Notes under the pieces: generated by a model | What the model saw: the letters and a program-made list of their open reading frames with translations, nothing else | Database searches by the model: none | What the model was told of the DNA's origin: nothing | DNA from: an uncultured bacterium | GTDB lineage: Bacteria > Omnitrophota > Omnitrophia > Omnitrophales > Aquincolibacteriaceae | Assembly (NCBI GenBank): GCA_964434115.1 | Contig: CAYSSX010000002.1 | Coordinates: 9,680 to 73,679 of the forward strand | Reading direction: 5' to 3' | Length of the DNA: 64,000 nt | In this document: in pieces, positions 13,611 to 29,907 of the stretch | Layout of the letters: the number at the start of each line of letters is the position of its first letter | Numbering within the stretch: the stretch's first letter is position 1 | Made by a program: the position numbers and the translations under genes

Positions 13611-15730
<2,120 letters not shown>

Positions 15731-15734
15731 TTCT

Positions 15735-16853
15735 ATGTTTATGGAAAAAAAGAAAGTCCTGGTGGCCATGAGCGGCGGTGTTGACAGCTCTGTGACGGCC
15801 GCGCTTCTTAAAGAGCAGGGTTATGATGTGGGCGGAGCTACGATCCGCACCTGGGCTTCCAATACCTGCGCGAGCGTAAACACCCGGGCCTGCTGCGGCC
15901 TGACGGGTGTTGAAGATGCCCGGTCCGTGTGCGACACGCTTGGAATTCCTTACTGGGTTTTCAACTTTGAGAAAGAATTCAAGACCCATGTGGTGGATTA
16001 CTTCGCCTCGGAGTACCTGAAGGCCCGCACCCCCAACCCATGCATTGCCTGCAACGAGCATATCAAGTTCCGCTTGTTTCTCCAGCGCGCGCGCCAGCTG
16101 GGTTACGACTTGATCGCGACGGGTCACTATGCCCAGCTTCACCACGACGCGGCCCATGACACCTTCTCTATCTCTGAAGGCGTGGATCATCATAAAGACC
16201 AGTCCTATGTTCTTTTTCCACTCGACCGGGAAGTTCTCAGCCATTTGCTGCTGCCAGTCGGAGGATTCACAAAGTCAGAAATCCGCGAGAAGGCCAAAGC
16301 CTATAACCTCTGCGTCATGAACAAGCCTGACTCTCAGGAAATCTGCTTTATCCCGAGCAATGATTACGGCGCTTTCTTGGAAAAAGAATTTGTCCGCGAG
16401 GACACCCGAGTGCCCTTGCCCGAAAGTCTTTCCGGGGAAAAGAAAACAGGCGTGATTCGAACGAAGGACGGAGAAGTCCTCGGCCAGCATGAAGGCTATT
16501 TTCACTATACGATCGGCCAGCGCCGCGGGCTCGGCGTCGCGGCCGGCAACCGTCTTTATGTGGTCGACATTCTTCCTTCGACCAATGAGGTGGTGGTGGG
16601 AAGCAAGGAAGATATTCTGCGCCAGCATTTTGTGGCGGCCCGCATCAACTGGTTTACAAAACCAGAAGCCGAGACTTTTCAGGCACACGTCAAAATCAGG
16701 TCTCAGCACAAGAAGTCTCCCGCCACGGTTACGGTGCTTGAAGATGGCCGTGTGGAAGGTGTTTTCCATGAACCTCAGGAAGCTATCACGCCCGGTCAGG
16801 CTGCGGTTTTCTACGATGGACCCCGCGTGATCGGCGGCGGCTGGATCGATTAA
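15735..16853 (+). CDS. mnmA: tRNA-specific 2-thiouridylase
   Basis: PP-loop SGGVDSS plus conserved MnmA cysteines. Starts 5 nt after the bioD stop. Confidence 0.85.
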   Translation: MFMEKKKVLVAMSGGVDSSVTAALLKEQGYDVGGATIRTWASNTCASVNTRACCGLTGVEDARSVCDTLGIPYWVFNFEKEFKTHVVDYFASEYLKARTPNPCIACNEHIKFRLFLQRARQLGYDLIATGHYAQLHHDAAHDTFSISEGVDHHKDQSYVLFPLDREVLSHLLLPVGGFTKSEIREKAKAYNLCVMNKPDSQEICFIPSNDYGAFLEKEFVREDTRVPLPESLSGEKKTGVIRTKDGEVLGQHEGYFHYTIGQRRGLGVAAGNRLYVVDILPSTNEVVVGSKEDILRQHFVAARINWFTKPEAETFQAHVKIRSQHKKSPATVTVLEDGRVEGVFHEPQEAITPGQAAVFYDGPRVIGGGWID

Positions 16854-16873: not shown

Positions 16874-18250
16874 ATGCGAGGCATCACCCTCGAAGGTAAA
16901 AAAGAATCCACCCTTATCACCTGGACGCTGAAGCGTCTGCGCAACCCTGTTCGTGTCCGCATTTCTCTCAAGCAAGGCCCGCTGGATAAAACCACGGCTT
17001 GCGTTCGTCACGATGATTTGGTCAAAGCCGGCCAGAAAATCGCGGAACCCGCCGACTCTTTTTCCGTTCCCCTGCACGCCAGTGTTTCCGGACGCGTGAT
17101 TACCGTAGGCTCATTCCCGCATCCGACCCTCGATTCCTGCGATGCTATTGAGATTGTGGGGGACGGCAAGCATGAAACCGTTCCGGGTGTGGGAACCGAA
17201 CGTCATGGGTGGGATTTGCTTTCGCCTGATTCACTGACCGCGCTGTTTCGTGAAATGGGGCTTGTGAGCCTGACGCCCGGTATGGTTCCTTTGCATGTTC
17301 TTATTGAAGATGCTCGGCAGCACAAAATCCACACGCTTGTCATCAATGCCTGCGAGCCCGAGCCGTATGTGACAAGCGATCACTCCCTGATGATGTCGCA
17401 TCCGCTTGAAATTCTGAAAGGGGCGGAACTTCTTCGCCACGCCTGCGGCGCTGAAAAAGTGATCATCGCCCTTCAGGAAGACAAGATGCAGGTGGCTGAA
17501 CTTTTCAAAAGCAAAATTTATTTTTTGAAATGGGAGAATATTGAAGTCCGGGTTCTTCCATCAAAGTTTCCGCAGGGACTTTCACTGCCGCTGCTTCACG
17601 CGCTTTTTGGTCTGAAAATAAATTTCCCCCGGGAAGCCCAGGCCGAGGAGCCGGAACAGGCCGTTGAGCTTGGCTTGGCGAAAGAGTTTCACCGTCAAGG
17701 ACTCGCGCTTCAGGCTGTTGCAACAGCCTATGCTGTCTATGAGGCCGTGGTTTTGCAAAAACCTCTTTATGAAAGACCGGTCACCGTGGCGGGGGAATGC
17801 GTGATGGAGCCGAAAAATCTTTGGCTTCCGATGGGACTCAGCCTTCAGGATTCTTTCAAATCCGCGCGGGGCTTAATGAGGGAACCCGGAAAGGTTGTGA
17901 TGGGCGGTCCCATGCTGGGTTGGGAGCAGGAAGCTCTGGAGGCTCCGATTCTTAAAGGTACGACCGCGCTTTTGGCTTTGCCGAAAGAAGTGACTTTTGT
18001 TCCTGAAGTGACTGCCTGTACTCATTGCGGACGATGCGTGGAGATTTGTCCTTCCGAGATTTCCCCTGTGATGATTACGCTTGCCGCGGAGCAGGGCCTT
18101 TATGAAGAATCTCAGGCCTGGGGTGCTCTTGACTGCATCCGCTGCGGCAACTGCACGTACATTTGTCCCGCAAAACGCCCCATGGCGGATCTCATCCGCG
18201 ACGCCCGGCAGAATCTTTTGCCGATCAAGCGCGAAAATCAAAAAGAATAA
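16874..18250 (+). CDS. RnfC-like protein with two C-terminal 4Fe-4S cluster motifs and a degenerate flavin/NADH site
   Basis: Aligns to RnfC (..LVINACEPEPYVTSDHSLM..). C-terminal CTHCGRCVEICP and CIRCGNCTYICP motifs. The canonical GGAGFP motif is replaced by SLTPGMVPL. Confidence 0.7.
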   Translation: MRGITLEGKKESTLITWTLKRLRNPVRVRISLKQGPLDKTTACVRHDDLVKAGQKIAEPADSFSVPLHASVSGRVITVGSFPHPTLDSCDAIEIVGDGKHETVPGVGTERHGWDLLSPDSLTALFREMGLVSLTPGMVPLHVLIEDARQHKIHTLVINACEPEPYVTSDHSLMMSHPLEILKGAELLRHACGAEKVIIALQEDKMQVAELFKSKIYFLKWENIEVRVLPSKFPQGLSLPLLHALFGLKINFPREAQAEEPEQAVELGLAKEFHRQGLALQAVATAYAVYEAVVLQKPLYERPVTVAGECVMEPKNLWLPMGLSLQDSFKSARGLMREPGKVVMGGPMLGWEQEALEAPILKGTTALLALPKEVTFVPEVTACTHCGRCVEICPSEISPVMITLAAEQGLYEESQAWGALDCIRCGNCTYICPAKRPMADLIRDARQNLLPIKRENQKE

Positions 18251-19590
18251 TTCATTTCCCCGATATAAAGATTTTCAGGCATGCCGTATTCTTCATGAGG
18301 GCCGCCGGCGTAAAGCTGGGCCGCCAGCGTCAGGAGCAAGTTGCTTCGGAGTTCATAGCGGAGTTCCGGGCGAAGGAAAAGGCTCGTGTCATCCATGTTT
18401 AAAATCAGCCGGTGCTCAAAGCGAAGCAGTGAGGTGATGTTGTAGCCCATCAAAAGGGCGCTGTAATTTTTCGCAAGCTGCTGGATGTCCCCGTCGATGA
18501 AGCGAGCGACTTCGTAATCGTCCGTATTTCTCCGTCCCTCACCATTAAAATGATATTCCAAAAGCCCATAGACGTTGTGCGGAAAGTTGTAGTCCGCGTT
18601 TAAAGTAAACTTGATAAAGTCCCGCCCCTGATCGACTTCCCGGTAGAGGAACTCCCCGCGGACCGCAGAACTTTTAACATTTCCCTGAAAGTCAAAGCCG
18701 AGCGCATGATCCCGCTGAATACGGCCTCCGAGAACACCCATTTCAAAACCATAAATATCCTTTGAGATGCGGCCCAAATAGCGCTGAGGGTGGAGATCGC
18801 GGCCGCGGGGTGTGTAAATAAACTGCCATTTCATGTCCGCGAAATTTTTCGCGATCATGTTGACGGCATCCACGCCATCCCGTTCTTCAAGTTCAATCTG
18901 GGTGGGGCTGAAGGGATTGAATAAGTCGGTGGGGGTGAAGAAGTGGCCGACCCCCCAGGGAATCTGCTGACGTCCGATTTCTACCGAGAAATCATTGTTT
19001 TCATAAACCACGCTGGCCCGGTACAGGCGGTGTTCATAAAGAGCGCCGTGTTCTTCGACAAGATCCTGGCTGAGATCCAGGAACTGGCGCTTTTCGCTCA
19101 GGTTGTGGGCCATCCTGAAATCCCCGGATCCGACAAAGCTCCCGAAGGACGCTCCGTGATCGTAATCCACCTTCACCGTGACCCTGTGATTTTCTTTGAC
19201 GTCCCAGGTGCTTTTGAGTTTGAGGCGGATTCTTTCCATGCTGGAGAAAAGGCTCTCTCTTTTTTCTCCTCCGGCCAAAGGATTGTCCGCAAGCTCTGGT
19301 GTGAGTCCCGTGGTTTTGGTGAAAAAGTTCAAGGTTTTGATATACCCCGAAAGGTGGGTGTCGAGGGGCGCCTCGCCGGCAAAAACCCAGGCCGGAACAA
19401 GGGCAGCAAGTGAAAGCGCCGCGGTTAACCAAAAACGAAGAGGCAGTCTTGCCGAGGGCTTTCTTTTGAGACTCCCGGAAAAATTGGAATCAAGAAGTTC
19501 GGGCACCGCGGCGGGAGAATTTTTGAGTTCAAGGGCATCGTGAAGAATCGAACCCCGTTTTAAATCTTCCCGGATTTTTCCAGGCATCAT
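18238..19590 (-). CDS. Outer-membrane beta-barrel protein (C-terminal aromatic residue), last gene of the minus-strand operon
   Basis: Signal-peptide-like segment LTAALSLAALVPAWVFA. Alternating amphipathic strands. Ends ..EMNYSF. True start uncertain (long N-terminal lead before the signal peptide). 4-nt overlap with the upstream ATPase. Confidence 0.5.
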   Translation of the reverse strand: MMPGKIREDLKRGSILHDALELKNSPAAVPELLDSNFSGSLKRKPSARLPLRFWLTAALSLAALVPAWVFAGEAPLDTHLSGYIKTLNFFTKTTGLTPELADNPLAGGEKRESLFSSMERIRLKLKSTWDVKENHRVTVKVDYDHGASFGSFVGSGDFRMAHNLSEKRQFLDLSQDLVEEHGALYEHRLYRASVVYENNDFSVEIGRQQIPWGVGHFFTPTDLFNPFSPTQIELEERDGVDAVNMIAKNFADMKWQFIYTPRGRDLHPQRYLGRISKDIYGFEMGVLGGRIQRDHALGFDFQGNVKSSAVRGEFLYREVDQGRDFIKFTLNADYNFPHNVYGLLEYHFNGEGRRNTDDYEVARFIDGDIQQLAKNYSALLMGYNITSLLRFEHRLILNMDDTSLFLRPELRYELRSNLLLTLAAQLYAGGPHEEYGMPENLYIGEMNYSF

Positions 19591-20270
19591 GAAACAATCG
19601 CTCCGTCCTGCATGCGGATCACCCGCTCCGCCCGTTCAATCATCACCGGGTCATGACTGGCGTAAACAAACGTCATGCCTTCTTTCTTATTTAATTCTTT
19701 GAGAAAATCCATGAGCGTTGCGCCGGTTTTGTGATCAAGGTTAGCGGTCAATTCATCACCCAAAACAATTTTAGGTTTGTGCACAATAGCCCGGGCAACG
19801 GCCACACGCTGCTGCTGGCCCCGGCTAAGCTCGGCAGGTCTCCGGCCGATCAATTTTTCAATGCCAAAGCGGGCGCAGACTTCCAGGGCGCGCTGGCGGC
19901 GTTCCTGGGGGCCAACCCCCTGGAGCCAAAGAACGTATTCCACATTCTCAAGAGCGGACAAAGTTGGAATAAGATTGAAATCCTGAAAAATAAAACCAAT
20001 TTTGTGCAGGCGAAGCCGCGAAAGTTTCCCTTGATCATAGCGGCTGATTTCTTCGCCGTCGAGAAAAACCTCCCCGGAAGTGGGGCGGTCCAGACATCCG
20101 ATTAAATTAAGAAGTGTGGTTTTGCCTGAACCGGAAGGTCCGCAGAAGGCAACAAAGGAACCCGCGGCGATGGAAGTCGAGACTTCCTGCAGGGCCTGCA
20201 CCGGAAGGGAGTGTCCGGTAAAAACCTTCGATAATTTTTTAACTTCGACAAGAGGCTGTGTCATGGTCAC
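19587..20270 (-). CDS. ABC transporter ATP-binding protein, LolD/MacB type
   Basis: Walker A GPSGSGKTT, LSRGQQQRVAVARA signature, Walker B at VLGDELTANLD, about 227 aa. Confidence 0.85.
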   Translation of the reverse strand: MTMTQPLVEVKKLSKVFTGHSLPVQALQEVSTSIAAGSFVAFCGPSGSGKTTLLNLIGCLDRPTSGEVFLDGEEISRYDQGKLSRLRLHKIGFIFQDFNLIPTLSALENVEYVLWLQGVGPQERRQRALEVCARFGIEKLIGRRPAELSRGQQQRVAVARAIVHKPKIVLGDELTANLDHKTGATLMDFLKELNKKEGMTFVYASHDPVMIERAERVIRMQDGAIVS

Positions 20271-21490
20271 GAATGATAAATCGCTTTAACAGGTTCCATC
20301 CGCCCCGCTTTCCAGGCCGGATAAAGACTGATCAGGGTTGTTAAACTGAGAAGCGTTAAAACCGATTGGATGACGTGTGCGGGTTCAACCCGTGTATAGG
20401 TGACAGTGCTCATGTAGGAGCGCGAGAAAGCGGCCTCAAGCTCGGGAAAGGCAATGCCGGTGACACCGAAGTAGCCCACGACCGAATAACCGGCGAGAAG
20501 CCCCAAAAGAATGCCCCAGCATTCGAGAACAATAGTTTCAAGAAGAATGAGCCCGATGATGCGGCCCGGGCTTGTCCCTAGCGCGAGCATAACACCGATC
20601 TCACGGGTTCTTTCAAAAACAGACATCAGAACCGTATTCATGATGCTGACGCCAATCACCACCATGACCGCGACGAGAATGGTTTTGATAATGGCTTCCG
20701 CCCACTGGGCCCACTGTTCCACTTCCGGTACAATTTGATCCCAGGTTAAAAGCTCATAATCTTTTTCACTGACAAAGGGACGGAACGCTTTAATAAAGGC
20801 GCTGATATGTTTTCTCGAATCCAGGCGAAAGACCATTTCATGAGTGTCCTGGCCAAGCCCCAGCAATTCCTGCGCGGATTCCAGCGTGATGTAGGCGGCG
20901 ATCTCATCCACCTGCTGGCTGCCGGTGTGAAGAATTCCGGCAATGTGATAAGAGTAGCCCGCCAGAGTTCCGTCCAAGGCTTGGGTCATGACGACCAGTT
21001 TGTCGCCCACGCCCGCTTCCATGCGCTTGGCAAGCCTTGAACCGATGAGGATAGAGCGCTTGTCCTCCTTTGTTAAGTAGGCGCCTTCCCGGACATACTG
21101 TTCAAGCTGGGTGACTTTCTTTTCCTGATCCGGATCGATTCCCATGAGAAGAACCCCGCGGGAACGTTCACTGGTCCCTAAAAGCGCCTCGCATTTCGCG
21201 CGTTCCGTGTAGGTTACAAAACCCGGAAGTTTTGAGGCGTTTTTGAGAAGGGCCTCACGGTTTGGAATAATCAGTTCGGGTGAAAGGGCTTTTTCAAAAC
21301 CCGCGGCGTGAACTTGGACGTGGCCGGTATAGAGGCGTATGACATTCTCACGCATTTGTTCATTGGTACCGTCGCTGAAACCCCACAGGAAGATCAGGGC
21401 GGCAAGGCCAACGCCCACGGCAAGAACCGTGATCACGGAACGCCGGGGGTTACGGCCGATGTTTAAAAACGCGAGTTTGAGTAAAAACAT
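20267..21490 (-). CDS. FtsX/MacB/LolCE-family ABC transporter permease
   Basis: N-terminal TM, large periplasmic domain, three C-terminal TM helices. 407 aa, typical of LolC/E-MacB permeases. Confidence 0.8.
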   Translation of the reverse strand: MFLLKLAFLNIGRNPRRSVITVLAVGVGLAALIFLWGFSDGTNEQMRENVIRLYTGHVQVHAAGFEKALSPELIIPNREALLKNASKLPGFVTYTERAKCEALLGTSERSRGVLLMGIDPDQEKKVTQLEQYVREGAYLTKEDKRSILIGSRLAKRMEAGVGDKLVVMTQALDGTLAGYSYHIAGILHTGSQQVDEIAAYITLESAQELLGLGQDTHEMVFRLDSRKHISAFIKAFRPFVSEKDYELLTWDQIVPEVEQWAQWAEAIIKTILVAVMVVIGVSIMNTVLMSVFERTREIGVMLALGTSPGRIIGLILLETIVLECWGILLGLLAGYSVVGYFGVTGIAFPELEAAFSRSYMSTVTYTRVEPAHVIQSVLTLLSLTTLISLYPAWKAGRMEPVKAIYHS

Positions 21491-22425
21491 CAGGGGTATT
21501 TTTCAAGGTTTGACTTCGTGAAAAGGGAATCAGGGATTTCTTGATCAAAGGCGGCTTCCTGAATCGTGACGGTGGTGGAGCGGTCCTTATCCTTGTGATT
21601 GGACATCTTCCACACGGTCGGGATCTCATGAGTTCCGAAAGATTTGAAATCAGAATATTCCAAGGTCCGGATGTGAACGAGCTTTTCATTAAAAAAGTCC
21701 CAGCGTACAGGCGCGGAATCTTTTTGCCGGAGCCACACCACGAGCTTTCCGTAAGTGACAGGAGCATCGGGTTTGGGAATGAGTTCAAGGCGGTAGCAGT
21801 CAAACCCATCGATCTTTTCTTCCCCGGCAACGGAACCGTCATAATCGCGGGGCATATAGCTCAGCTTCACAAAATCATCATTGGAGAAGTCGCTGCCCAT
21901 AAAATCATCAAGCATGAGTGACGGGGGGATAAGGATGGTGCGCTCCGCAGACGGCAGGTATTGCCATAGCCGTGACTGAACTCTGAGAAAGCCCTGGCCT
22001 TCCGACTTGGAAGGGGAGAGAACGCGCGCAAATGTATAATCGATGCCCTTCATCCAGACCCGGATTTTGTAATCACGCTCCCAGCGCGAAGTCTTCACGT
22101 GAAGAACAACCGTCATGTCATGCGATTTTCCGCGGAGAACCTCGTCCATTTGAGCCAAAAGTATCTTTATGTCCGGCTGCGGCTCTGCGGCAGAGGCCGT
22201 GTCTTGGGTGCTCAAGACAGGCGCATTTGGGGTAACAAGGCTGCTTTCCAAAGCAACAGCCTTAGCCTCCGGCTCTGTTTGAACCGGAGCTTGAGATTGC
22301 GTTGGAGCTGGAGCCGCCGGTGTCGGCGGAACCGGAAGAGGCTGCTGTGGCGGACGACGGAAATAAAAAAAACAGGCCGCAGCAATAGCGGCTAAGACGG
22401 CTAGCAGTAACCAATTTTTTTTCAT
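21490..22425 (-). CDS. Periplasmic LolA-like (outer-membrane lipoprotein-sorting-like) protein with a Pro/Ala/Gln-rich linker
   Basis: Signal peptide, low-complexity PPQQPLPVPPTPAAPAPTQ linker, then a beta-rich domain resembling the LolA-like fold family. Overlaps neighbouring genes by 1-4 nt. Confidence 0.45.
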   Translation of the reverse strand: MKKNWLLLAVLAAIAAACFFYFRRPPQQPLPVPPTPAAPAPTQSQAPVQTEPEAKAVALESSLVTPNAPVLSTQDTASAAEPQPDIKILLAQMDEVLRGKSHDMTVVLHVKTSRWERDYKIRVWMKGIDYTFARVLSPSKSEGQGFLRVQSRLWQYLPSAERTILIPPSLMLDDFMGSDFSNDDFVKLSYMPRDYDGSVAGEEKIDGFDCYRLELIPKPDAPVTYGKLVVWLRQKDSAPVRWDFFNEKLVHIRTLEYSDFKSFGTHEIPTVWKMSNHKDKDRSTTVTIQEAAFDQEIPDSLFTKSNLEKYP

Positions 22426-23351
22426 AGGGCCGCCTCGACTTCCTTCTTAGTTTTTATAGAAGCCGCTTGAGAGACGGTTTTTTTTCGAGAGGGAAGGAAG
22501 AATTTTAGAACAATCCATTTTTTCAGGCGCATCAAGGGACTCCGCATACCCTGAGGGTAAGTTCTTATCACTGTTTTCTGGGTCATGAGGTCGGTTTGAT
22601 AAACCGTTGGAGCAAACGCTGTTTTTCTTTTGCCCGTCAGGTGTTTGACGGCTTCGGTTCCCGTAATAGCGCCGACCAGCATAAGCCCCGGCGAAACACT
22701 TGAGGCGCGCCGGCTTCCGAGCTCGGAAGCGCGCGAGTTCATATAAGACAGGCACAGAGGGGTTGGGGACAGGCCGAAGGCGAAAGCGAAATTTTTATCC
22801 TCTTCCGAAAGTCCGGGGCGAAAGTCAAAGTACTCTTCAAAGGTCATACCTTGCGGAGAAAAAACAAGGAGCGAAGCGCCGAACCCGAGCGGACAAGAGG
22901 TGATAACAGTAAGCCCCTTTTCGCGGCTCTTGCGAAACAGAAGAAGTTTGGCCTCGAGCGCGAAAAAGTCGATGCCATCAATAACGAGGTCGGAGCCGTC
23001 AAGAAAAGAGCTGATGTTTTTCTCGTGGACACCTTCCGGAAAAAGTTCGACGTCAGCTTCAGGGTTAATGGAGAGGACCATGTCCCGAAGAACCGCGACT
23101 TTGGATTTTCCCAAAGAATCATGCGTTGCGCCGATTTGGCGGTTCAGGTTGGTCAATTCGAAGACGTCAGGGTCCGCGAATTTAAAGCGTGTGATTCCGA
23201 GGCGGGCCAAGGCCTGGGCCTGAAAACCGCCCGCTCCACCAAGTCCCGCAATGGCCACCGTGGACTGCCTTAACTTGGCCTGTTCTTCGTTGGTCAGCCA
23301 GCCAAGATTACGGTCAAAGGCCTGATCATAATCAAAAACTCCGGCAGGCAC
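22422..23351 (-). CDS. ThiF/MoeB/MccB-type E1-like adenylyltransferase
   Basis: IAGLGGAGG nucleotide-binding loop, NLNRQ catalytic motif, DxD region (LVIDGIDFF). C-terminal about 130 aa of unknown function. No CxxC pairs. Confidence 0.75.
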   Translation of the reverse strand: MPAGVFDYDQAFDRNLGWLTNEEQAKLRQSTVAIAGLGGAGGFQAQALARLGITRFKFADPDVFELTNLNRQIGATHDSLGKSKVAVLRDMVLSINPEADVELFPEGVHEKNISSFLDGSDLVIDGIDFFALEAKLLLFRKSREKGLTVITSCPLGFGASLLVFSPQGMTFEEYFDFRPGLSEEDKNFAFAFGLSPTPLCLSYMNSRASELGSRRASSVSPGLMLVGAITGTEAVKHLTGKRKTAFAPTVYQTDLMTQKTVIRTYPQGMRSPLMRLKKWIVLKFFLPSRKKTVSQAASIKTKKEVEAAL

Positions 23352-23439
23352 TGTGGTCTCCTTTAAATTAGGTATCGCAAAACGAAGCTTTAAAAAACAA
23401 AAAAGGACATTTGATAGCTTAAGGCAAGAGCCTTAATTG

Positions 23440-24576
23440 TCAATCCTTGTTTCCCATGTGCAAGCTCTCCTCAGGAAGTAAAAAACTTTCAAGAGGCCGT
23501 CTGAGGGAGCGGCCTCCAGCGGGAGAGGCATAGCCGATGCGGAAAAGCAGGATAAGTCCTTGCCAGGGTTTTAATCCAAAAAGGTAAGAGAACCGCGATT
23601 TCATGTTTTCCAGTTTTTTGCGTTGCTCGCCGGAAAGATCACGGCCATTGGTCAGCTCTGAATTAATCAGAAAAATAGGCAAAGCTTCCATGGGTTGAAA
23701 TGCAAGCCCTTGGGCTGTGGCTTCATGCCAGATGCGCTGCATGACTTCACCGCCCTGGACATAATGCTCCGGTGCTTTTCCGGGTGCCACAATAAGTCCG
23801 CAGGCCTGCGATGAGAGCATTTGCATCTTGGCGTAGAGATTAAAGGAAAAACTCATTCCCAAAGCGTTCAGGAATTGCAGGCGGTTCCAGGACCGGAGAA
23901 GCCCGAACATGAGACCCGCAGAAGGGCCGGCATCAAGACTCGTTAGCGGAAGCCCGTCACGTGTTTCCTCGGCCTCTTTATCCGAGAAGCGCATGACCTT
24001 CATAAGTTCCTGGTGAAGACGGAAAATCTCAAAACGAAGCTGGTCCGCTTCCCCGATTAAGGAGGCCATATCCCGGTAATGCGCAGTTCCTTGTTTTAGC
24101 CAGAGCAGCCGGTAACCGCGGTTGGGGTCCGATTGATTTTCCAAGGCCCGGAACACCGGGTCCGGAAGCGGAGCGGAAGACTTATAAAATTTACGGTTGG
24201 TGTGCCGCTTTTCCAGGAATTGCAAATGCGGGTGCTTATGCGCAGCGCCCGGCAGCCATTCCACGTGAATGGGTTTTAGGGGATGGTCCGTTTCCGGAAA
24301 ATAGTCGGCCCGGATGCCTGCTCCGAAAGCAGAAGCCGCAACGCGGATATTTTCAACAACTGCCCCCGCCGAAAGGTAAGGAGCCGCGTAACCCTCATCG
24401 CAGTAACTGGCAAGCAGTTCGGGATTCAGGAAAAGATCGACCCCGTTTTCAAGAATCCGGAATTTCCACGGCTGGAGGTTGTCGGCCGAAGGTGCCAAAA
24501 TACCTTTTTTTAAAATATCCAGAACCTGATTCCGGGTCAGCTTTGCATGCGCCGTTTTTTGAACTTCAGGAGTCAT
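23440..24576 (-). CDS. Two-domain nitroreductase-superfamily (FMN) protein, SagB-like dehydrogenase
   Basis: N-terminal APSADNLQPWKF nitroreductase signature. Second repeat begins at EKRHTNRKFY. 378 aa. Confidence 0.65.
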   Translation of the reverse strand: MTPEVQKTAHAKLTRNQVLDILKKGILAPSADNLQPWKFRILENGVDLFLNPELLASYCDEGYAAPYLSAGAVVENIRVAASAFGAGIRADYFPETDHPLKPIHVEWLPGAAHKHPHLQFLEKRHTNRKFYKSSAPLPDPVFRALENQSDPNRGYRLLWLKQGTAHYRDMASLIGEADQLRFEIFRLHQELMKVMRFSDKEAEETRDGLPLTSLDAGPSAGLMFGLLRSWNRLQFLNALGMSFSFNLYAKMQMLSSQACGLIVAPGKAPEHYVQGGEVMQRIWHEATAQGLAFQPMEALPIFLINSELTNGRDLSGEQRKKLENMKSRFSYLFGLKPWQGLILLFRIGYASPAGGRSLRRPLESFLLPEESLHMGNKD

Positions 24577-25832
24577 TAGGCCGCGCCCTCTTTTTTGACA
24601 TCGGTTGATTTTTCAGGGAAATCCAGGTCCGGGTAAAGCGATTGAAGAACGGCTTTATTTTTCTGAATAAGGTCCTGCTTGATGACACCCTCGAAAAGGT
24701 ATTTCGAAAACAAATCCGTGTCCCACGTCAGGTACCGGCCCAGCTCTTCAGGCGACATGGGATTGTTCAGAAAGTACAGGCCTGCCCCCTTGTGAATAGA
24801 CGCTGTCCGGATAACGTAATCAAGGTCCATGTGCATGAGAAGCGCGGGTTTTCCCTGAGCGCCCGGGTAAGAGCGCACAGGCCCCACGGCATCAAAATGC
24901 AGATAGCGGTAAAGGTCTTTGTGCTTGGGATGCATTCCGATCACGAGGTCGGTGATGCCGCCCATAGTTCTCGCATAATCAAAAAGAATTTTGAACATCC
25001 GGAAAGAGCCGGTTAATTTCTGGAAATCCGTGAGCGAGAAAGAATGGCGGGTGAAGGCCTCACCGTCAAGCGCAAGAAGTCCTACTTCGGCAAGCCTTCT
25101 GCCGGGTTTTCTCAGAGAAGCGATTTCCTCAGGGAAAATGGATTCGAGCGGCAGCCCGCAGCCAGAGTCGGTAATAAGGCTCACCGTGCCCGCAAGATTT
25201 CCATTTTTTTCGAGAAGGAAAGTCCGCGACTCCGGAAGAATACTGTAAAGCGAGTAGTGGAGGCCGCGTGAATTTTGAGCGCAGTAATTCTTCAGACGGT
25301 ATTCCCTGTAAACCAGCTCATAGGCCTTTTGAAGTTCTTCGGAAGTGACCGCTGTTCTGCAGCCGAAATTTTTCTCATTGCGTTCTGCCAGGCTGCAAAT
25401 TTTGTCAGCCATGAAATACATGATTTTTTCTTTATTGGAAAGCTGGCGAAGATTTTTAAATGCGATTCCGCATTCCATGGCCGTTTGGCCGTTGGATGAG
25501 GGATTGGCCCACACGATGACGCCTTCGAGACGCACGGTTTTTTCAATTTCCGGAAGTTTAATGTCGAGATCTACCTGGGTGCCGACAGCAACTTTGCGGT
25601 CGAGTGCGAGGCGGACTCCGTTCCGGGAGACATCGATCGAATGGGAATGAAACCAGGGAAAATTTGCGCCCTTGGGGCGGTACCGTACGGGAAGACTGAA
25701 AGAGATGCGTGCTTCCCGGCGTTTTTCAAGAAGCGGGTCAACACTTACAGGGGCAGGCTGGGTTTGACCAAAAACATTGTCTTCCAAAATCCCGATGCCC
25801 AGTTCCCAGTTCCACGCGGTGCTCAGTTTCAT
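24576..25832 (-). CDS. PilZ domain fused to GNAT-fold N-acyl amino acid synthase-like domain (FeeM/OlsB-like)
   Basis: PilZ motifs RREAR (RxxxR) and DVSRNG (DxSxxG). C-terminal about 250 aa has an N-acyltransferase-like pattern (YELVYREYRL.., acyl-HSL-synthase-like fold). First gene of the operon. Confidence 0.5.
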   Translation of the reverse strand: MKLSTAWNWELGIGILEDNVFGQTQPAPVSVDPLLEKRREARISFSLPVRYRPKGANFPWFHSHSIDVSRNGVRLALDRKVAVGTQVDLDIKLPEIEKTVRLEGVIVWANPSSNGQTAMECGIAFKNLRQLSNKEKIMYFMADKICSLAERNEKNFGCRTAVTSEELQKAYELVYREYRLKNYCAQNSRGLHYSLYSILPESRTFLLEKNGNLAGTVSLITDSGCGLPLESIFPEEIASLRKPGRRLAEVGLLALDGEAFTRHSFSLTDFQKLTGSFRMFKILFDYARTMGGITDLVIGMHPKHKDLYRYLHFDAVGPVRSYPGAQGKPALLMHMDLDYVIRTASIHKGAGLYFLNNPMSPEELGRYLTWDTDLFSKYLFEGVIKQDLIQKNKAVLQSLYPDLDFPEKSTDVKKEGAA

Positions 25833-26036
25833 GAAACCTCATTATCGGGTTCAGGGGGTTGAACGTCCCACAGGTCGCGGTTCACAAAGCGCTCAAAAGC
25901 TCCAAAACACACTTTTCTTGCTAAACTTAAGTCTACCCGCCCCTATTAGTTAATACAAGGAAGGGCCAAGGAAAAGACCTGGAGGTTGCATCTTGCATCC
26001 AGAATTGCTATTTTGAGCCATAAAAACCAGGAAATC

Positions 26037-26978
26037 ATGCCCCAAAACACCCTGAAAAACGCGCCCTATCTAAGAGCCAAAGAGACTTCCAGCCTTATGG
26101 CCTGGAAGAAAACAGCGGCCCTTCTGCCGCTCGTGGCAACGGCTGTTATCTTTTACCGGCTTCCGGGAATTTTGCTGATTTCAACGACCGTCATTTCAGC
26201 CTTGCTGGCGGAACGAATTTCCCGTTTTTATCTTCGGGCCAAGCCGTCTTTTCAAGATGGAAACTCTGTTTTAACCGGGCTTATTGTCGCATTGGTGGTT
26301 CCGGCGGGGCTTCCTCTTTGGATTGCTGCTTTGGGTGCGTTTATAGCCGTGGCCATCGGGAGTGAAGTCCTGGGAGGCCCTGGGCATTCCCCGCTGCCGC
26401 CGGCCATCACGGGATATCTTTTTCTCCTGGTGAGTTTTCCATTAGCCATGAGGCATTCCTTGGAACCCGGGTTTTTGGAGCCGGCAGCAATGCCTCTTGT
26501 CTGGCTGAAAGAAGGTGCCTTAGATGCTTTACCTGGTTGGGGTGAGATTCTTGCGCGGCCTATTGCAGGACCGATCGGAACTGTTTTTTTTCCAGCGCTG
26601 CTGATCAGCGCCGCCATTCTTATTTCTCAGCGGCTCATTTTTTGGGAAATGCCTTTTCTCTATCTTGCCGCAGCAGGCCTTGCGGCTTTTGGTTTTGGAG
26701 AAGATCCTATTTTAGTTCTCTTTTTGGGCCTGCCGATTTTTGCCGCGTTTTTTATTATTCCGGAGTCTCTGACCGCGCCGCATCACCGCCACAGTGTCCG
26801 TTTTTTCGCATTGTTTGCCGGTGTTTTAACTACGGTTCTTCGGCATGTCTCTTTCGCGTTTGATCCCGCGCTGTCGGCGATTTTTCTTTGCTCTTTCTTG
26901 GCCTCTTGGCTGGATGAAGCAGGACGTCCCGAACCGCGTAAACCGCGCCAGATATCCGGAGCAGAAAAGCCGGCATGA
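26037..26978 (+). CDS. RnfD/NqrB-like membrane subunit lacking the covalent-FMN threonine motif
   Basis: Aligns well to RnfD (LTGLIVALVVPAGLPLWIAALGAFIAVAIG.., ..ESLTAPHHRHSVRFFALFAG..). The position of the canonical SGAT reads GLPI. Start ATG 26037 with an AGGA upstream. Confidence 0.7.
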   Translation: MPQNTLKNAPYLRAKETSSLMAWKKTAALLPLVATAVIFYRLPGILLISTTVISALLAERISRFYLRAKPSFQDGNSVLTGLIVALVVPAGLPLWIAALGAFIAVAIGSEVLGGPGHSPLPPAITGYLFLLVSFPLAMRHSLEPGFLEPAAMPLVWLKEGALDALPGWGEILARPIAGPIGTVFFPALLISAAILISQRLIFWEMPFLYLAAAGLAAFGFGEDPILVLFLGLPIFAAFFIIPESLTAPHHRHSVRFFALFAGVLTTVLRHVSFAFDPALSAIFLCSFLASWLDEAGRPEPRKPRQISGAEKPA

Positions 26979-27700
26979 AGACAAAACGGAGAGAAAGTTT
27001 TTTAAAAGCAGTTTTTTTTGTGCTGTACCTGGCGGTTCTTTCTGCGGGCATTCTGGCTTCCCGGATGTTTGCCCTTCCTGAAAGGGCTCCCGTCTCTTCG
27101 GAATTGGCATGGAAAGAGGGTGTGAAAGAACTGCTTCCAGCGCATGACAACTCTCCCCTGAAGGATGTCTTTTCTCTTGATGGCCGGGAAGTGTTCCCGG
27201 CTTTTCAGATCAAAGCCCATGAGGATGACGAGGGGCAGCTGCTTGAATTTTTTGACCTTAAGGGCGTTGCCTTTCGTGTTGAAGGGAAGGGGCCTTACGG
27301 CAGCTACGACTTGCTGCTAGGAATCGACACCGAAGGACGTGTGAAAGGCGTTCGCTTGATACGGCAGAATGAACCGCGCGGGGTCAGCCTGGCGGTTGAA
27401 AAATCGGCGGCTTTTTGGGAAAGTTTTAAAGATAAAAGCCGGGAGGATTTGTCGCTCCTCATGGATGGCGGAAAAATTGTGCCGGTTCTTGGAGCCGTGG
27501 AAGTGTCCCGCCGTTATACGGAAGCGATTAAAGAGGAGATTGAAAAATACCTTGCGGCAAAGCAGGTTTGGAAAGAGCAGGCTATGGGCTCCCGCCGCTC
27601 TTTCGAAGATCTCAAAAAACTTGAAGACGCCGAAAGCCAGCCGGTTCCGGCAAACCCCGAGGAAGGAAACAATGAAGCTTTTCTCTCCCGAGTATTCTGA
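26975..27700 (+). CDS. RnfG/NqrC-like FMN_bind domain protein (flavinylation Thr replaced)
   Basis: N-terminal TM plus periplasmic FMN_bind-like domain. The canonical S/TGAT region reads LGAVEVS. Overlaps rnfD and rnfE-like genes. Confidence 0.5.
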   Translation: MKTKRRESFLKAVFFVLYLAVLSAGILASRMFALPERAPVSSELAWKEGVKELLPAHDNSPLKDVFSLDGREVFPAFQIKAHEDDEGQLLEFFDLKGVAFRVEGKGPYGSYDLLLGIDTEGRVKGVRLIRQNEPRGVSLAVEKSAAFWESFKDKSREDLSLLMDGGKIVPVLGAVEVSRRYTEAIKEEIEKYLAAKQVWKEQAMGSRRSFEDLKKLEDAESQPVPANPEEGNNEAFLSRVF

Positions 27701-28208
27701 CAATTCAGCCTCAAGGGTTTTTTTGGCCTGCGCTCCCGTGTTGTTCTTTACGGGCAGCCCGGGGGAGTCCCTCTGGCTGAGTCTCTGGATTGCGTGTGCC
27801 CTTCTCGGGATGGTTTTATTTTTTACGCTGACGGCCTTTTGGTTTTCCGCCAAAGTCCGGCAGACAGCTTTCTTTCTGGGACTCGCCGTCGTTGTGCAGT
27901 GCCTGTTTCGGATCCAGGGACTTCATCCCGTGCTGATCGCGAGTCTTTTTCTTTTGATGCCAGCGCGCCTTTTTTCTTCGGGGCAAAGAGTTCCGGTGCT
28001 CAGGCAGTCCTTTTTAAGAGCACTTTTTTTTGTCGTGGTCATGGGGCTCATCGGCGCCTTTCGGGAACTTCTTGGGGAGCGCTTTTTGGTGTGGTCTTTC
28101 CGGCTTCCCGCCGGGGCGTTTTTTCTTCTGTTTGCCGGCGCCTTTCTTTGGAAAAATCAGCCTGCGTTGAGCGGCGCAGAGAGTTCGAATCGGGAGGTCC
28201 GGGCATGA
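27672..28208 (+). CDS. RnfE/NqrD-like membrane subunit
   Basis: LxxCPxL-like N-terminal motif (RVFLACAPVLF), six TM segments. Internal ATG of ORF 27369..28208. Confidence 0.5.
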   Translation: MKLFSPEYSDNSASRVFLACAPVLFFTGSPGESLWLSLWIACALLGMVLFFTLTAFWFSAKVRQTAFFLGLAVVVQCLFRIQGLHPVLIASLFLLMPARLFSSGQRVPVLRQSFLRALFFVVVMGLIGAFRELLGERFLVWSFRLPAGAFFLLFAGAFLWKNQPALSGAESSNREVRA

Positions 28209-28720
28209 GCGAAGAAGTTTTTTTAATCATTGCCGCCGGTTTCTTTCTTTCTCTGGAGCCTGGTTCTGAACTCGGGACACCCCGGTGGACGCTGATTCTT
28301 CAGAACCGTTTCTGTGAAGCCGTTGAGATTTTTTTACATGCGGCGGTCTTAATCCTTTTTCACGAACGCTTAATCAGTCTTTTGGGGGCTGAAGAAATCC
28401 GCACCTTTTTCCCGCTTTTTTATATGCTGGGAGCCTATGTTTTTGTTCTCCTGAGAGCTAAAAGCGCGCGGTTCCTCATGCTTTCCTGGATGACCGGTCT
28501 TTTTTTTACGGGGAACCATGCCGGCCTTCGTGAGACCCTCCAGCACCTTGCAGTGATGACTGCGGCGTCCGGCGCTTCGGCCTTGCTTTTATTGTGTGCT
28601 CAAAGGCGTCAGATTTTCTCCCGCGTTCCGGCGGTGGTGAAAGGACTCCCCCAGATCTTCCTTTTGGCGGCGTTTCTCGCCCTCGCCCTCGGATCCCTTG
28701 AGGGCTTCCTCGGTTTTTAA
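28205..28720 (+). CDS. RnfA/NqrE-like membrane subunit
   Basis: Paralog of the preceding gene, hydrophobic 171 aa. Internal ATG of ORF 27794..28720 overlapping the previous stop (ATGA). Confidence 0.5.
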   Translation: MSEEVFLIIAAGFFLSLEPGSELGTPRWTLILQNRFCEAVEIFLHAAVLILFHERLISLLGAEEIRTFFPLFYMLGAYVFVLLRAKSARFLMLSWMTGLFFTGNHAGLRETLQHLAVMTAASGASALLLLCAQRRQIFSRVPAVVKGLPQIFLLAAFLALALGSLEGFLGF

Positions 28721-28833: not shown

Positions 28834-29907
28834 ATGAACATCGAAGGTATTCTGAATTATGCGATTGAAAGAGAAGCCTCGGATATCCACCTCAGCGTGG
28901 GGCGTCCCGCATCCGTCCGGCGTCATGGCGAGATTATCTCCATTGATGACCATGTGCTTACCGCGGAAGATACCGAAACCCTGGCCCGTGAGATCACCAG
29001 TGAAGAACAGCGCAAAAAAGTGGAAGAGGTTGGCGGTATTGATTTTGGTTTTTCGTATGGCAAAAGCGCCCGCTTCCGCGTGTCTTGTTTTAAGCAGTCC
29101 GGCACTTACGCGATGGTGCTTCGTCAGCTGCCTTTTAAATTCTATTCTTTTGAGCAGATTGGTTTACCGCAGCAATTAGCCGGCCTTCTTTCCCGTCCGA
29201 GAGGTTTGATTCTTGTGACCGGTCCCACGGGCTCTGGTAAAACCACGACCTTGGCAACGATGTTAAACTACATCAATGAGAATTTCCCCCGCCACATCAT
29301 TACCGCGGAAGACCCGATTGAGTTCGTTCACCCGCATAAAAAATCGATCATGACCCAGCGCGAAGTGGGAGAAGACGTGCCGAGCTTTTCTGAAGCCGTA
29401 ATCAAAGCGCTTCGTCAAGACCCCGACGTTATCCTTATTGGGGAAATGCGCGACATCAACACCATGGAGTCTGCTATCCGCGCTGCAGAAACGGGACACC
29501 TTGTTTTTTCAACGCTTCACACCACGGGTGCGGCGCGCACCGTGGACCGGATTATTGACGTTTTTCCGTCCCATCAGCAGACGCAGGTGCGTATTCAGCT
29601 GGCCTCAACAATTGTTGCCGTTATTTCCCAAACGCTGATTCCCCGCCTTGATGGAAAAGGGCGTACTTGTGCGTTTGAAATTATGATCGCCACACCAGCA
29701 ATCCGGAATTTGATCCGCGAAAACAAAACCTATCAAATCACCTCTGAAATTCAAACCGGGGCTAAGTACGGTATGAAGGCCCTCGATGATCATCTCAAAG
29801 ATCTTTACCAGGCCGGTATCATTGGCTATGACGCCATGATTGAGGTGGCCCAGGACCCCCGAGAACTGGCCGCGCGTGTCACGCAGCCATCAGCGGCTAA
29901 GGGTTAG
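28834..29907 (+). CDS. pilT: Type IV pilus retraction ATPase
   Basis: Walker A GPTGSGKTT. PilT-specific motifs (AIRAAETGHLVFSTLHT, Asp box, His box). 357 aa. Confidence 0.9.
   Translation: MNIEGILNYAIEREASDIHLSVGRPASVRRHGEIISIDDHVLTAEDTETLAREITSEEQRKKVEEVGGIDFGFSYGKSARFRVSCFKQSGTYAMVLRQLPFKFYSFEQIGLPQQLAGLLSRPRGLILVTGPTGSGKTTTLATMLNYINENFPRHIITAEDPIEFVHPHKKSIMTQREVGEDVPSFSEAVIKALRQDPDVILIGEMRDINTMESAIRAAETGHLVFSTLHTTGAARTVDRIIDVFPSHQQTQVRIQLASTIVAVISQTLIPRLDGKGRTCAFEIMIATPAIRNLIRENKTYQITSEIQTGAKYGMKALDDHLKDLYQAGIIGYDAMIEVAQDPRELAARVTQPSAAKG

What the first reader, a model, noticed from the sequence alone, without database searches (positions are those of the whole stretch)
16874..28720. Rnf-like gene set (rnfC ... 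rnfD-G-E-A) with all canonical flavin/NADH motifs degenerate, no rnfB, and split by the convergent operon
The RnfC-like protein keeps both 4Fe-4S motifs, but the GGAGFP NADH/FMN motif reads SLTPGMVPL. The RnfD-like protein aligns well to RnfD, but the SGAT flavinylation site reads GLPI. The RnfG-like FMN_bind domain has LGAVEVS in place of SGATxTS. No RnfB-like polyferredoxin follows rnfA (pilT follows instead). rnfC is separated from rnfDGEA by the 7.6-kb minus-strand operon. The rnfC stop (18250) overlaps the stop of the convergent OMP gene (18238). This looks like a flavin-less, possibly repurposed Rnf-derived membrane complex flanking the biosynthetic/export operon on both sides.
Basis: partly seen in the sequence, partly recalled or inferred. 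Interest (0 to 1): 0.65.

Follow-up and report, generated by a model that had tools for sequence, protein, structure and literature searches.

The report
Cofactor-stripped Rnf complex, split by lipid genes
A rare group of uncultured bacteria related to Candidatus Omnitrophota keeps, under purifying selection, a full set of Rnf respiratory-pump genes (C, D, G, E, A) that has lost every flavin site, the membrane iron-sulfur site and the ferredoxin-input subunit, so it cannot be the ion pump it would be annotated as and probably does something new.

Summary
Window 16874-18250 encodes an RnfC-like protein, and 26037-28720 encodes RnfD-, G-, E- and A-like proteins. No RnfB is present. A 7.6-kb minus-strand operon separates the two parts.

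Cofactor sites, checked against three solved Rnf complexes and one canonical operon:
- RnfC has lost the glycine-rich FMN loop (GLGGATFP reads SLTPGMVP) but keeps both [4Fe-4S] motifs.
- The FMN-bearing Thr of RnfG is Val.

This is not an artefact or decay. Ten loci from independent assemblies, with RnfD identity down to about 25%, show the same losses, and dN/dS is about 0.08-0.12. RnfC is the best conserved subunit and has new invariant cysteines. In the deepest branch RnfG shrinks to a transmembrane stub of about 38 aa.

The intervening operon is an inserted tyz/oxz-type N-acyl-amino-acid/oxazolone lipid cassette (PilZ-FeeM, nitroreductase, ThiF) plus a LolA/MacB-type exporter. One sub-lineage lost it again, leaving rnfCDGEA contiguous.

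Verdict: a new, conserved variant of Rnf that cannot run ferredoxin:NAD+ electron transfer. Its function is unknown. My best guess is an Fe-S-capped membrane module with a non-pumping role.

The parts
16874..18250 (+). RnfC-like subunit (458 aa). The NuoF-like FMN loop is lost (SLTPGMVP) and two [4Fe-4S] motifs are kept. It is the best conserved subunit of the family, with family-specific invariant Cys43 and Cys309.
   Evidence: Pfam and NCBIfam hits, alignments to solved Rnf structures, motif table, conservation analysis.
18238..19590 (-). Last gene of the inserted operon (450 aa). No family match; presumed outer-membrane component of the exporter. Its 3' end overlaps rnfC by 13 bp.
   Evidence: No Pfam or NCBIfam hit. 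Conserved at the same position in L007 and L009.
19587..21490 (-). ABC ATPase (19587-20270) and MacB/FtsX-type permease (20267-21490).
   Evidence: ABC_tran 2.5e-31; FtsX 4.4e-18 and MacB_PCD 9.3e-16.
21490..22425 (-). LolA_like periplasmic lipid/lipoprotein carrier-like protein.
   Evidence: PF17131, 1.1e-49.
22422..23351 (-). ThiF-family adenylating enzyme, TyzB/OxzB-N-like cyclase.
   Evidence: NF006077, 333 bits against a 266-bit cut-off. Role taken from PMC10404671.
23440..24576 (-). Nitroreductase-superfamily flavin-dependent oxidase, TyzC-like / C-terminal half of Rv1355c.
   Evidence: (NF005901 1.5e-60, NF011424 8e-64). Role taken.
24576..25832 (-). PilZ domain fused to a FeeM-type N-acyl amino acid synthase (TyzA/OxzA/NasY-like). 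Transcribed divergently from rnfD.
   Evidence: FeeM 4.7e-35, PilZ 2.8e-14.
26037..26978 (+). RnfD-like subunit (313 aa). The FMN Thr is replaced by Met. The acidic residue at the position of A. woodii D249 is kept as Glu. Pro and Arg of the 'P-H-x-R' motif (TAPHHRH) are invariant in the 9 distinct family sequences; the His is Leu in L019-L021.
26975..27700 (+). RnfG-like subunit (241 aa). The FMN Thr is replaced by Val. There is no Pfam FMN_bind hit. It has a charged C-terminal tail.
   Evidence: no Pfam family; NF045876, 7.6e-12, below cut-off.
27672..28208 (+). RnfE-like subunit (178 aa). The first cluster Cys is kept. The segment carrying the second Cys and the Na+-site backbone is deleted (about 11 aa).
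   Evidence: Pfam Rnf-Nqr 6.7e-4, profile positions 10-170 of 174; best solved-structure hits are RnfE, E 0.077.
28205..28720 (+). RnfA-like subunit (171 aa). It is about 30 aa shorter at the N-terminus and has neither cluster Cys.
   Evidence: profile against solved RnfA, 3.2e-7; NqrE, 3.5e-5.
28834..29907 (+). PilT-type ATPase. It is the next gene after rnfA in each of the ten family loci that extends that far. Any functional link is unproven.

Best explanation
What it is (shown): a vertically inherited derivative of the Rnf ferredoxin:NAD+ oxidoreductase, with subunits C, D, G, E and A in canonical order and no RnfB. The electron wire has been removed.
- The RnfC FMN loop is gone.
- The covalent-FMN threonines of RnfD and RnfG are gone.
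- Three of the four cysteines of the intramembrane RnfA/E [2Fe-2S] cluster are gone.
- The two [4Fe-4S] clusters of RnfC are the only recognisable redox centres left.

The set is conserved and under purifying selection in a rare clade that includes a Candidatus Omnitrophota MAG.

The split between rnfC and rnfD comes from an old insertion of a tyz/oxz-type N-acyl-amino-acid/acyl-oxazolone lipid cassette (PilZ-NAS, FDO nitroreductase, ThiF). In this lineage the cassette was extended by a LolA-like/MacB/ABC/outer-membrane exporter.

How it works (inferred, low confidence): it cannot couple ferredoxin oxidation to NAD+ reduction and ion pumping. It most likely survives as a non-pumping membrane module. 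The strongly conserved, neofunctionalised RnfC Fe-S protein would act as a redox sensor, or as an electron entry point to a riboflavin/quinone-type site on RnfD. It would sit on an RnfD/E/A scaffold, with RnfG dispensable.

The confidence of 0.6 blends about 0.85 for what it is with about 0.3 for how it works.
For: Homology:
- RnfC scores above the TIGR01945 cut-off.
- Against solved Rnf structures: RnfC 5e-67, RnfD 1e-31, RnfG 8e-7, RnfA profile 3e-7. RnfE is the weakest, at 0.077 for its profile, with a Pfam Rnf-Nqr hit at 6.7e-4.
- The gene order is C-D-G-E-A.

Cofactor loss:
- Residue-level alignments are, and an 11-sequence motif table is.
- The residues map onto T153(RnfD) and T164(RnfG) of C. 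tetanomorphum (PMC9588780).
- They also map onto C25/C113(RnfA), C25/C108(RnfE), T185(RnfG) and N123/D249(RnfD) of A. woodii. Mutating any of these abolishes activity and growth (PMC11889175).
- There is no RnfB or other polyferredoxin motif in the 64 kb.
- No rnfB gene adjoins the rnf genes in any of the ten loci, which carry up to 10 kb of flank; flanking genes of L007, L008 and L019-L021 were identified by synteny, not domain-scanned.

Not decay:
- dN/dS is 0.08-0.12 for D, G and A. E has pN 0.14 against saturated pS.
- ORFs are intact in independent assemblies.
- RnfC has 91 positions invariant across 9 divergent members, including new Cys43 and Cys309.

RnfG is dispensable: it is reduced to a transmembrane-only mini-ORF of about 38 aa in L019 and L020.

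Insertion history: the neighbour-joining tree combined with the layouts.

Cassette identity: plus PMC10404671 and PMC12479983.
Against: - No biochemical data exist.
- Non-covalent flavin binding in RnfD or RnfG cannot be excluded from sequence alone.
- The acidic residue that binds riboflavin (D249 equivalent) is retained, so a short redox path may remain.
- Evidence for RnfE homology is weak on its own (E 6.7e-4 to 0.08).
- Only one canonical operon plus three solved complexes were used as comparators.
- I could not inspect the rest of the genome. A canonical rnf, rnfB or apbE elsewhere is neither shown nor excluded.
- The proposed sensor/scaffold role rests only on which residues stay conserved.
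Confidence: 0.6

Rival explanations
1. It is still a working Rnf pump. Flavins and an Fe-S or iron centre are bound non-covalently or through non-canonical ligands, and ferredoxin input is supplied by an rnfB encoded elsewhere.
For: RnfC scores above the rnfC family cut-off. The gene order is canonical. The acidic riboflavin ligand of RnfD is kept. Omnitrophota papers routinely annotate 'a conserved Rnf complex'.
Against: Single substitutions at each of these sites (cluster Cys, RnfG Thr, RnfD N123/D249) abolish activity in A. woodii. Here all are changed together. The RnfE half-helix carrying Cys108 and the Na+-site backbone is deleted, and RnfG is lost outright in a sister branch. The FMN loop of RnfC carries acidic residues in place of Gly-Gly in most members. 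No rnfB lies next to the rnf genes in any of the ten loci.
Confidence: 0.06
2. It is a shortened cytoplasmic-side redox module. Electrons enter the RnfC [4Fe-4S] clusters from a soluble partner and leave through a riboflavin or quinone bound at RnfD, as in the last step of Na+-NQR. There is no transmembrane electron transfer or pumping, and G, E and A are structural remnants.
For: All eight cluster cysteines are invariant across the family, and RnfC is its most conserved subunit. The D249-equivalent acidic residue is kept in all members. NqrA/NqrB provide a precedent for a remodelled RnfC/RnfD pair (PMC12174285). The window carries UbiA and SCO1 genes, which hints at a quinone/oxidase chain.
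Against: The second riboflavin ligand (N123) is not conserved: P/P/P/P/N/S/Q/H/Q, read from the alignment and the sequences. No donor or quinone site can be identified. Purifying selection also acts on E and A, which pure remnants would not need.
Confidence: 0.25
3. The Rnf-like set and the inserted lipid/export operon form one functional system. For example, the Rnf-derived membrane complex could energise or scaffold export of the N-acyl lipid.
For: The cassette sits between rnfC and rnfD in five divergent lineages (window, L007, L009, L013, L015), and PilZ-FeeM lies upstream of rnfD in L012. It is transcribed divergently from rnfD across a shared region of about 200 bp.
Against: L008 and L016 (nested within the clade) and L019-L021 (basal) keep the Rnf-like set without the cassette. 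The same three enzymes work alone in Mycobacterium and Pseudoalteromonas, and homologous gene clusters occur in Planctomycetota. The exporter has its own ABC ATPase. The whole region, from bioA to prmC, is a frozen syntenic backbone, so adjacency carries little weight.
Confidence: 0.1
4. The genes are decaying pseudogenes or an assembly/annotation artefact.
For: Family scores are very low for G, E and A.
Against: ORFs are intact in ten loci from independent samples. dN/dS is about 0.1. There are family-specific invariant residues. The same split layout appears in separate assemblies.
Confidence: 0.02

Closest known systems
Rnf complex (RnfABCDGE, Na+/H+-translocating ferredoxin:NAD+ oxidoreductase; solved for C. 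tetanomorphum 7ZC6, A. vinelandii 8AHX, A. woodii 9ERI)
   Same: There are homologues of five of the six subunits in the canonical C-D-G-E-A order. RnfC has the same domain set (RnfC_N, NuoF-like, SLBB, 2x[4Fe-4S] ferredoxin domain). RnfD aligns over nearly its full length. The C-terminal halves of RnfA and RnfE keep signature motifs (REILG-like, GLP...LALA).
   Different: There is no RnfB. The RnfC FMN loop is lost. The covalent-FMN Thr of RnfD and RnfG are lost. Three of four [2Fe-2S] cysteines are lost, with deletions in RnfE (about 11 aa) and RnfA (about 30 aa at the N-terminus). D, G, E and A all score below the family cut-offs. RnfG is reduced to a transmembrane stub in one branch.
Na+-NQR (NqrABCDEF)
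   Same: It offers an evolutionary precedent. It derives from a duplicated rnf operon that lost rnfB, and its RnfC homologue NqrA lost all redox cofactors (PMC12174285).
   Different: NQR keeps the whole membrane cofactor chain ([2Fe-2S], two covalent FMN, riboflavin) and gained NqrF as an input module. Here the membrane chain is lost, the RnfC Fe-S clusters are kept, and no NqrF-like gene is present.
'NQR/RNF-like' flavinylation-associated systems (Meheust et al. 2021, PMC8238504)
   Same: They reuse an RnfD/NqrB-type membrane domain outside the classical complex.
   Different: Those systems are defined by ApbE-flavinylated FMN-binding domains and an NqrF-type NAD domain. This set has neither a flavinylation motif nor an NAD-binding input domain.
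tyzACB / oxzAB acyl-oxazolone and N-acyl-dehydrotyrosine (stieleriacine-type) clusters. This comparison applies to the inserted operon only.
   Same: It has the same three enzyme types: a FeeM-type N-acyl amino acid synthase, a ThiF-type cyclase and a nitroreductase-superfamily desaturase.
   Different: The synthase carries an N-terminal PilZ domain. In this lineage the cluster is followed by a LolA_like/MacB/ABC/unknown 450-aa export set. The product is unknown.

Membership tests
Rnf complex (ferredoxin:NAD+ oxidoreductase) | RnfB polyferredoxin input subunit encoded with the operon | tested here: not met
   mnmA lies upstream of rnfC and pilT lies downstream of rnfA. The only CxxCxxCxxxC motifs in the 64 kb are the two in RnfC. 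No rnfB adjoins the rnf genes in the ten related loci, which carry up to 10 kb of flank; some flanking genes were placed by synteny only. The rest of the genome could not be inspected.
Rnf complex (ferredoxin:NAD+ oxidoreductase) | RnfC: NuoF-type glycine-rich FMN/NADH loop (G-x-G-G-A-x-F-P) | tested here: not met
   The loop reads SLTPGMVP in the window and DEAMVP, DDDGIP, EEGVP, TDPLMEP or similar in relatives.
Rnf complex (ferredoxin:NAD+ oxidoreductase) | RnfC: two [4Fe-4S] motifs, and a family score above cut-off | tested here: met
   CTHCGRCVEICP and CIRCGNCTYICP are present. TIGR01945 scores 305.4 bits against a 245.95-bit cut-off.
Rnf complex (ferredoxin:NAD+ oxidoreductase) | RnfD: threonine carrying covalent FMN (T153 in C. 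tetanomorphum) | tested here: not met
   The residue is Met in AAMPL, and no Ser or Thr occurs in the loop. It is M/F/H/P or deleted in relatives. TIGR01946 scores 114.6 bits against a 207-bit cut-off.
Rnf complex (ferredoxin:NAD+ oxidoreductase) | RnfG: FMN_bind domain with flavinylated threonine (S/T-G-A-T) | tested here: not met
   The site reads LGAVEVS. There is no Pfam FMN_bind hit. TIGR01947 scores 27.9 bits against a 102-bit cut-off.
Rnf complex (ferredoxin:NAD+ oxidoreductase) | RnfA/RnfE: four cysteines ligating the intramembrane [2Fe-2S] cluster (C25/C113 RnfA, C25/C108 RnfE in A. woodii) | tested here: not met
   Only the first Cys of RnfE is kept, in 6 of the 10 family sequences tabulated. 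The RnfE second-Cys segment is deleted. RnfA has neither Cys.
Rnf complex (ferredoxin:NAD+ oxidoreductase) | RnfD riboflavin ligands (N123, D249 in A. woodii) | tested here: inconclusive
   The D249 equivalent is kept as E or D in all members. The N123 equivalent is Pro in the window and varies in relatives.
Rnf complex (ferredoxin:NAD+ oxidoreductase) | Fd:NAD+ oxidoreductase activity coupled to Na+/H+ translocation | not testable with these tools
   This needs purified complex or membranes.
Na+-NQR | NqrF (FAD/[2Fe-2S] NADH-oxidising subunit) and a cofactor-free NqrA | tested here: not met
   No NqrF-like gene is in the locus. The RnfC-like protein keeps its Fe-S motifs and matches the NqrA model only at 30.6 bits against a 450-bit cut-off.
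tyz/oxz-type N-acyl amino acid / acyl-oxazolone cluster (inserted operon) | Co-located FeeM-type N-acyl amino acid synthase, ThiF-type enzyme and nitroreductase-superfamily FDO | tested here: met
   FeeM 4.7e-35, ThiF 2.9e-42 and NF006077 above cut-off; Rv1355c-family C-terminal half 1.5e-60. The definition comes from PMC10404671 and PMC12479983.
tyz/oxz-type N-acyl amino acid / acyl-oxazolone cluster (inserted operon) | Product is an N-acyl (dehydro)aromatic amino acid or oxazolone | not testable with these tools
   This needs chemistry.

The most novel reading that the evidence does not exclude
An entire respiratory ion pump has been converted into a redox-dead (or Fe-S-only) membrane machine with a new job. 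It would be the whole-complex analogue of the RnfC-to-NqrA cofactor loss. A neofunctionalised RnfC carrying new invariant cysteines would be its active part. It may act as a redox- or O2-sensing gate or transporter, and conceivably works with the invariably adjacent PilT ATPase.
Probability: 0.45. Interest if true: 0.85.

Novelty: new variant of a known kind. Interest (0 to 1): 0.68.

Why it matters
A recent review states that the cofactors of the Rnf/Nqr membrane core are strictly conserved (PMC12174285). A conserved lineage that discards all of them yet keeps the proteins under selection is a natural experiment on what the scaffold can do without electron transfer, and on how pseudo-enzyme complexes arise.

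There is also a practical consequence. Automated pipelines would call this an 'Rnf complex', because RnfC passes the curated cut-off. Metabolic reconstructions of Omnitrophota invoke Rnf for ferredoxin/NAD+ balance and ion-motive force. For this clade that inference would be wrong.

The work also identifies a PilZ-fused, exporter-linked tyz/oxz-type lipid cluster in an uncultured phylum.

Tried and rejected
- The search for related loci with broad RnfD-like alignments failed for lack of a conserved stretch. Narrower alignments worked.
The single-sequence AF2 model was too poor for a fold search (pLDDT 56), so none was run.
- hhalign against a single canonical RnfE gave only P=0.0095.
- Cluster look-up returned no names or accessions.
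- Rfam found nothing at 12-31 kb.
- Promoter and terminator scans of the divergent intergenic region and of the rnfA-pilT spacer gave nothing above chance.
- The closest canonical RnfD hits (P0155, P0158) lie in unrelated synteny. In-situ degeneration from a canonical operon could therefore not be shown.
- I first read the conserved acidic residue at the 'ATDY' position as evidence for a retained ion path. The A. woodii work assigns it to riboflavin binding, so I dropped that argument. Likewise the RnfA/E Na+ site of that model is largely deleted here, which weakens a simple 'ion channel relic' reading.

Full report
**Anatomy**

ORF listing and family scans give this gene order on the plus strand:
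- bioA 13611-14978, bioD 14993-15730, mnmA about 15639-16853.
- An RnfC-like gene, 16874-18250.
- Seven minus-strand genes, 18238-25832.
- RnfD-like 26037-26978, RnfG-like 26975-27700, RnfE-like 27672-28208, RnfA-like 28205-28720.
- pilT 28834-29907, followed by polA, coaE, rho and further housekeeping genes.

RnfC passes the curated rnfC cut-off (305 against 246 bits). RnfD (115 against 207 bits) and RnfG (28 against 102 bits) fall below theirs. RnfE and RnfA are barely detectable with single sequences.

**Homology of the weak subunits**

- A profile of six RnfA-like sequences hits solved RnfA at E 3.2e-7 and NqrE at 3.5e-5.
- The RnfE-like protein matches Pfam Rnf-Nqr over profile positions 10-170 of 174 at E 6.7e-4.
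- The RnfE-like profile's only two hits among 177,635 distinct solved-structure sequences are RnfE chains, at E 0.077 and 1.2.
- Together with the canonical C-D-G-E-A order and the shared C-terminal motifs, I accept both as RnfE and RnfA homologues. RnfE is the weakest link.

**Cofactor sites**

Alignments to the three solved Rnf complexes and to one canonical metagenomic operon (L003/L004) are. They show:
- RnfC: GLGGATFP reads SLTPGMVP, while CxxCxxCxxxCP is kept twice.
- RnfD: TTATPL reads PAAMPL. The Met falls on Thr153 of C. tetanomorphum, the residue that carries FMN (PMC9588780).
- RnfG: ITGATITS reads VLGAVEVS, with Val on Thr164.

The [2Fe-2S] cluster of RnfA/E is ligated in A. woodii by C25/C113(RnfA) and C25/C108(RnfE) (PMC11889175). 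Here only the first RnfE Cys survives. The 11-residue stretch around the second RnfE Cys is deleted, and that stretch also holds the Na+-site backbone and the gating residue L103. The RnfA-like protein is about 30 residues shorter at its N-terminus and has no Cys at either position.

In A. woodii, mutating any one of these sites abolishes activity and autotrophic growth. Of the two riboflavin ligands in RnfD, the acidic one (D249) is kept as Glu, but N123 is Pro.

No RnfB-like gene is in the window. The two RnfC motifs are the only CxxCxxCxxxC motifs in any frame. The ORFs of 180 aa or more outside the finding that I scanned showed no polyferredoxin and no ApbE.

**Is it real and selected?**

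An exhaustive HMMER search of 1.84 billion representatives found only 13 proteins at E<=1e-30. The best hit was 50% identical, so the family is rare.

Context look-ups and collection scans gave ten loci from independent samples:
- L007 (73% RnfD identity), L009 (55%), and L008 and L016 (50%). L008 is labelled Candidatus Omnitrophota.
- L013/L014 and L015 (about 30%).
- L019, L020 and L021 (about 25%).

All show the same losses. Against L002, dN/dS is 0.08 for D, 0.08 for G and 0.12 for A. For E, pN is 0.14 against saturated pS.

RnfC is the slowest-evolving subunit, at 41-86% identity. It has 91 positions invariant in nine divergent members. These include all eight cluster cysteines and two new family-specific cysteines, Cys43 and Cys309, where the canonical protein has Val and Ser.

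In L019 and L020 RnfG is reduced to a transmembrane-only mini-ORF of about 38 codons, and the RnfD loop that would carry the Thr is deleted.

This pattern indicates remodelling under selection, not decay.

**The split**

The intervening genes are:
- PilZ-FeeM (an N-acyl amino acid synthase).
- A nitroreductase-superfamily protein matching the C-terminal half of Rv1355c.
- ThiF (NF006077, above cut-off).
- LolA_like, a MacB/FtsX permease, an ABC ATPase and an unassigned 450-aa protein.

The first three are the enzyme set of the tyzACB/oxzAB acyl-oxazolone pathway and of N-acyl-dehydrotyrosine (stieleriacine-type) clusters (PMC10404671, PMC12479983).

Distribution across the family:
- L013 and L015 carry only these three genes between rnfC and rnfD.
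- L012 has PilZ-FeeM upstream of rnfD.
- The window, L007 and L009 carry all seven genes.
- L008 and L016 have contiguous rnfCDGEA.
- L019-L021 also have contiguous genes.

A neighbour-joining tree of concatenated C+D+E+A places L008/L016 as sister to L009, inside the split clade, and places L019-L021 basal. The most parsimonious history has four steps:
1. Cofactor loss came first.
2. The three-gene cassette then inserted once.
3. The exporter genes were added later.
4. The whole insert was lost in L008/L016.

The 3'-end overlap of rnfC with the convergent gene recurs in every split locus: 4-13 bp from the coordinates. The Rnf-like set persists without the cassette, and the cassette's enzymes work alone in other phyla. 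I therefore treat the adjacency as historical rather than functional.

**Mechanism**

What is shown: the canonical electron path can be interrupted at every station except the RnfC clusters. That path runs RnfB, then [2Fe-2S] of RnfA/E, then FMN of RnfG, then FMN and riboflavin of RnfD, then the RnfC Fe-S clusters, then FMN of RnfC, then NAD+. Ferredoxin:NAD+ oxidoreduction and redox-driven pumping are therefore excluded on present knowledge.

What is inferred: function now centres on RnfC, given its extreme conservation, retained clusters and new cysteines. RnfC would be docked on an RnfD/E/A scaffold.

I see two live options:
- An Fe-S sensor or regulatory cap on a non-redox membrane module.
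- A short cytoplasmic-side redox path from the RnfC clusters to a riboflavin/quinone-type site on RnfD. The D249 equivalent is conserved. A 'P-H-x-R' motif appears next to it; its Pro and Arg are invariant in the family, while the His holds only in the window-to-L015 clade (Leu in L019-L021).

I cannot discriminate between them. pilT directly follows rnfA wherever the locus extends that far, but so does the whole polA-coaE-rho backbone, so no link is claimed.

**Comparison and novelty**

The set is Rnf-derived but fails most of the defining cofactor features of Rnf. It is not NQR either, since it has no NqrF and RnfC keeps its Fe-S clusters. NQR is the nearest precedent, because it also lost rnfB and its NqrA lost all cofactors. 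However, NQR keeps the membrane chain that is lost here.

I found no description of such a cofactor-less Rnf. Omnitrophota studies simply list 'Rnf'.

I rate it a new variant of a known kind. It would interest bioenergeticists and is directly relevant to metabolic annotation of Omnitrophota.

Noticed in passing
window 24576-25832 (-), and 12791-13561 (+): The N-acyl amino acid synthase of the inserted cassette carries an N-terminal PilZ (c-di-GMP receptor) domain. A GGDEF diguanylate cyclase gene sits just upstream of bioA, and also in L015. This suggests c-di-GMP control of N-acyl lipid synthesis. The stieleriacine paper does not mention PilZ.
   Followed up: partly
window 18238-19590 (-): The 450-aa terminal gene of the export operon has no Pfam or NCBIfam match, yet it is conserved in L007 and L009. 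It is presumed to be the outer-membrane partner of the LolA_like/MacB/ABC set.
   Followed up: no
L019 about 9838-9954; L020 about 9843-9965: Between rnfD and rnfE lies only a mini-ORF of about 38 codons. It encodes the RnfG transmembrane helix without the FMN-binding domain. The RnfD loop that normally bears the FMN Thr is deleted in the same loci.
   Followed up: partly
window 16874-18250 (RnfC-like residues 43 and 309): Two cysteines are invariant in nine divergent family members where canonical RnfC has Val and Ser. Together with the conserved Cys160 they could form a new metal or redox site where FMN used to sit.
   Followed up: no
P0016, P0021, P0026, P0029, P0030 etc.; L017 2322-3149: About 60 of the 150 nearest RnfD representatives have no [AGSC][TS]P[LIMV]-type flavinylation motif (crude regex, includes the family itself). 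Many are short (255-300 aa) and probably orphans; only P0030 had its context checked. P0030 follows YdjC and Amidohydro_2 genes with no other Rnf subunit nearby. The RnfD fold seems to be reused widely outside redox complexes.
   Followed up: partly
window 82-3279 (+): UbiA-family prenyltransferase, an ABC-2 transporter pair and SCO1/SenC lie together. This is the kind of set linked to haem-copper oxidase assembly, and it hints at an aerobic respiratory chain in this organism. That would fit the O2-dependent TyzC-type desaturase.
   Followed up: no
L022 5390-11860: This locus holds a canonical-looking Rnf with the unusual order rnfC-G-D-E. It lies next to a MamF/MmsF (magnetosome) gene and a protein of more than 2057 aa.
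   Followed up: no
window 42407-44077, 56876-57694, 57781-58458 (+): Three sizeable ORFs (556, 272 and 225 aa) have no Pfam match. The first follows an Omp85-family gene.
   Followed up: no
window 15639-16853 (+): The listed mnmA ORF starts at a TTG that overlaps bioD by about 90 bp. The Pfam match begins at residue 38, so the true start is probably downstream.
   Followed up: no
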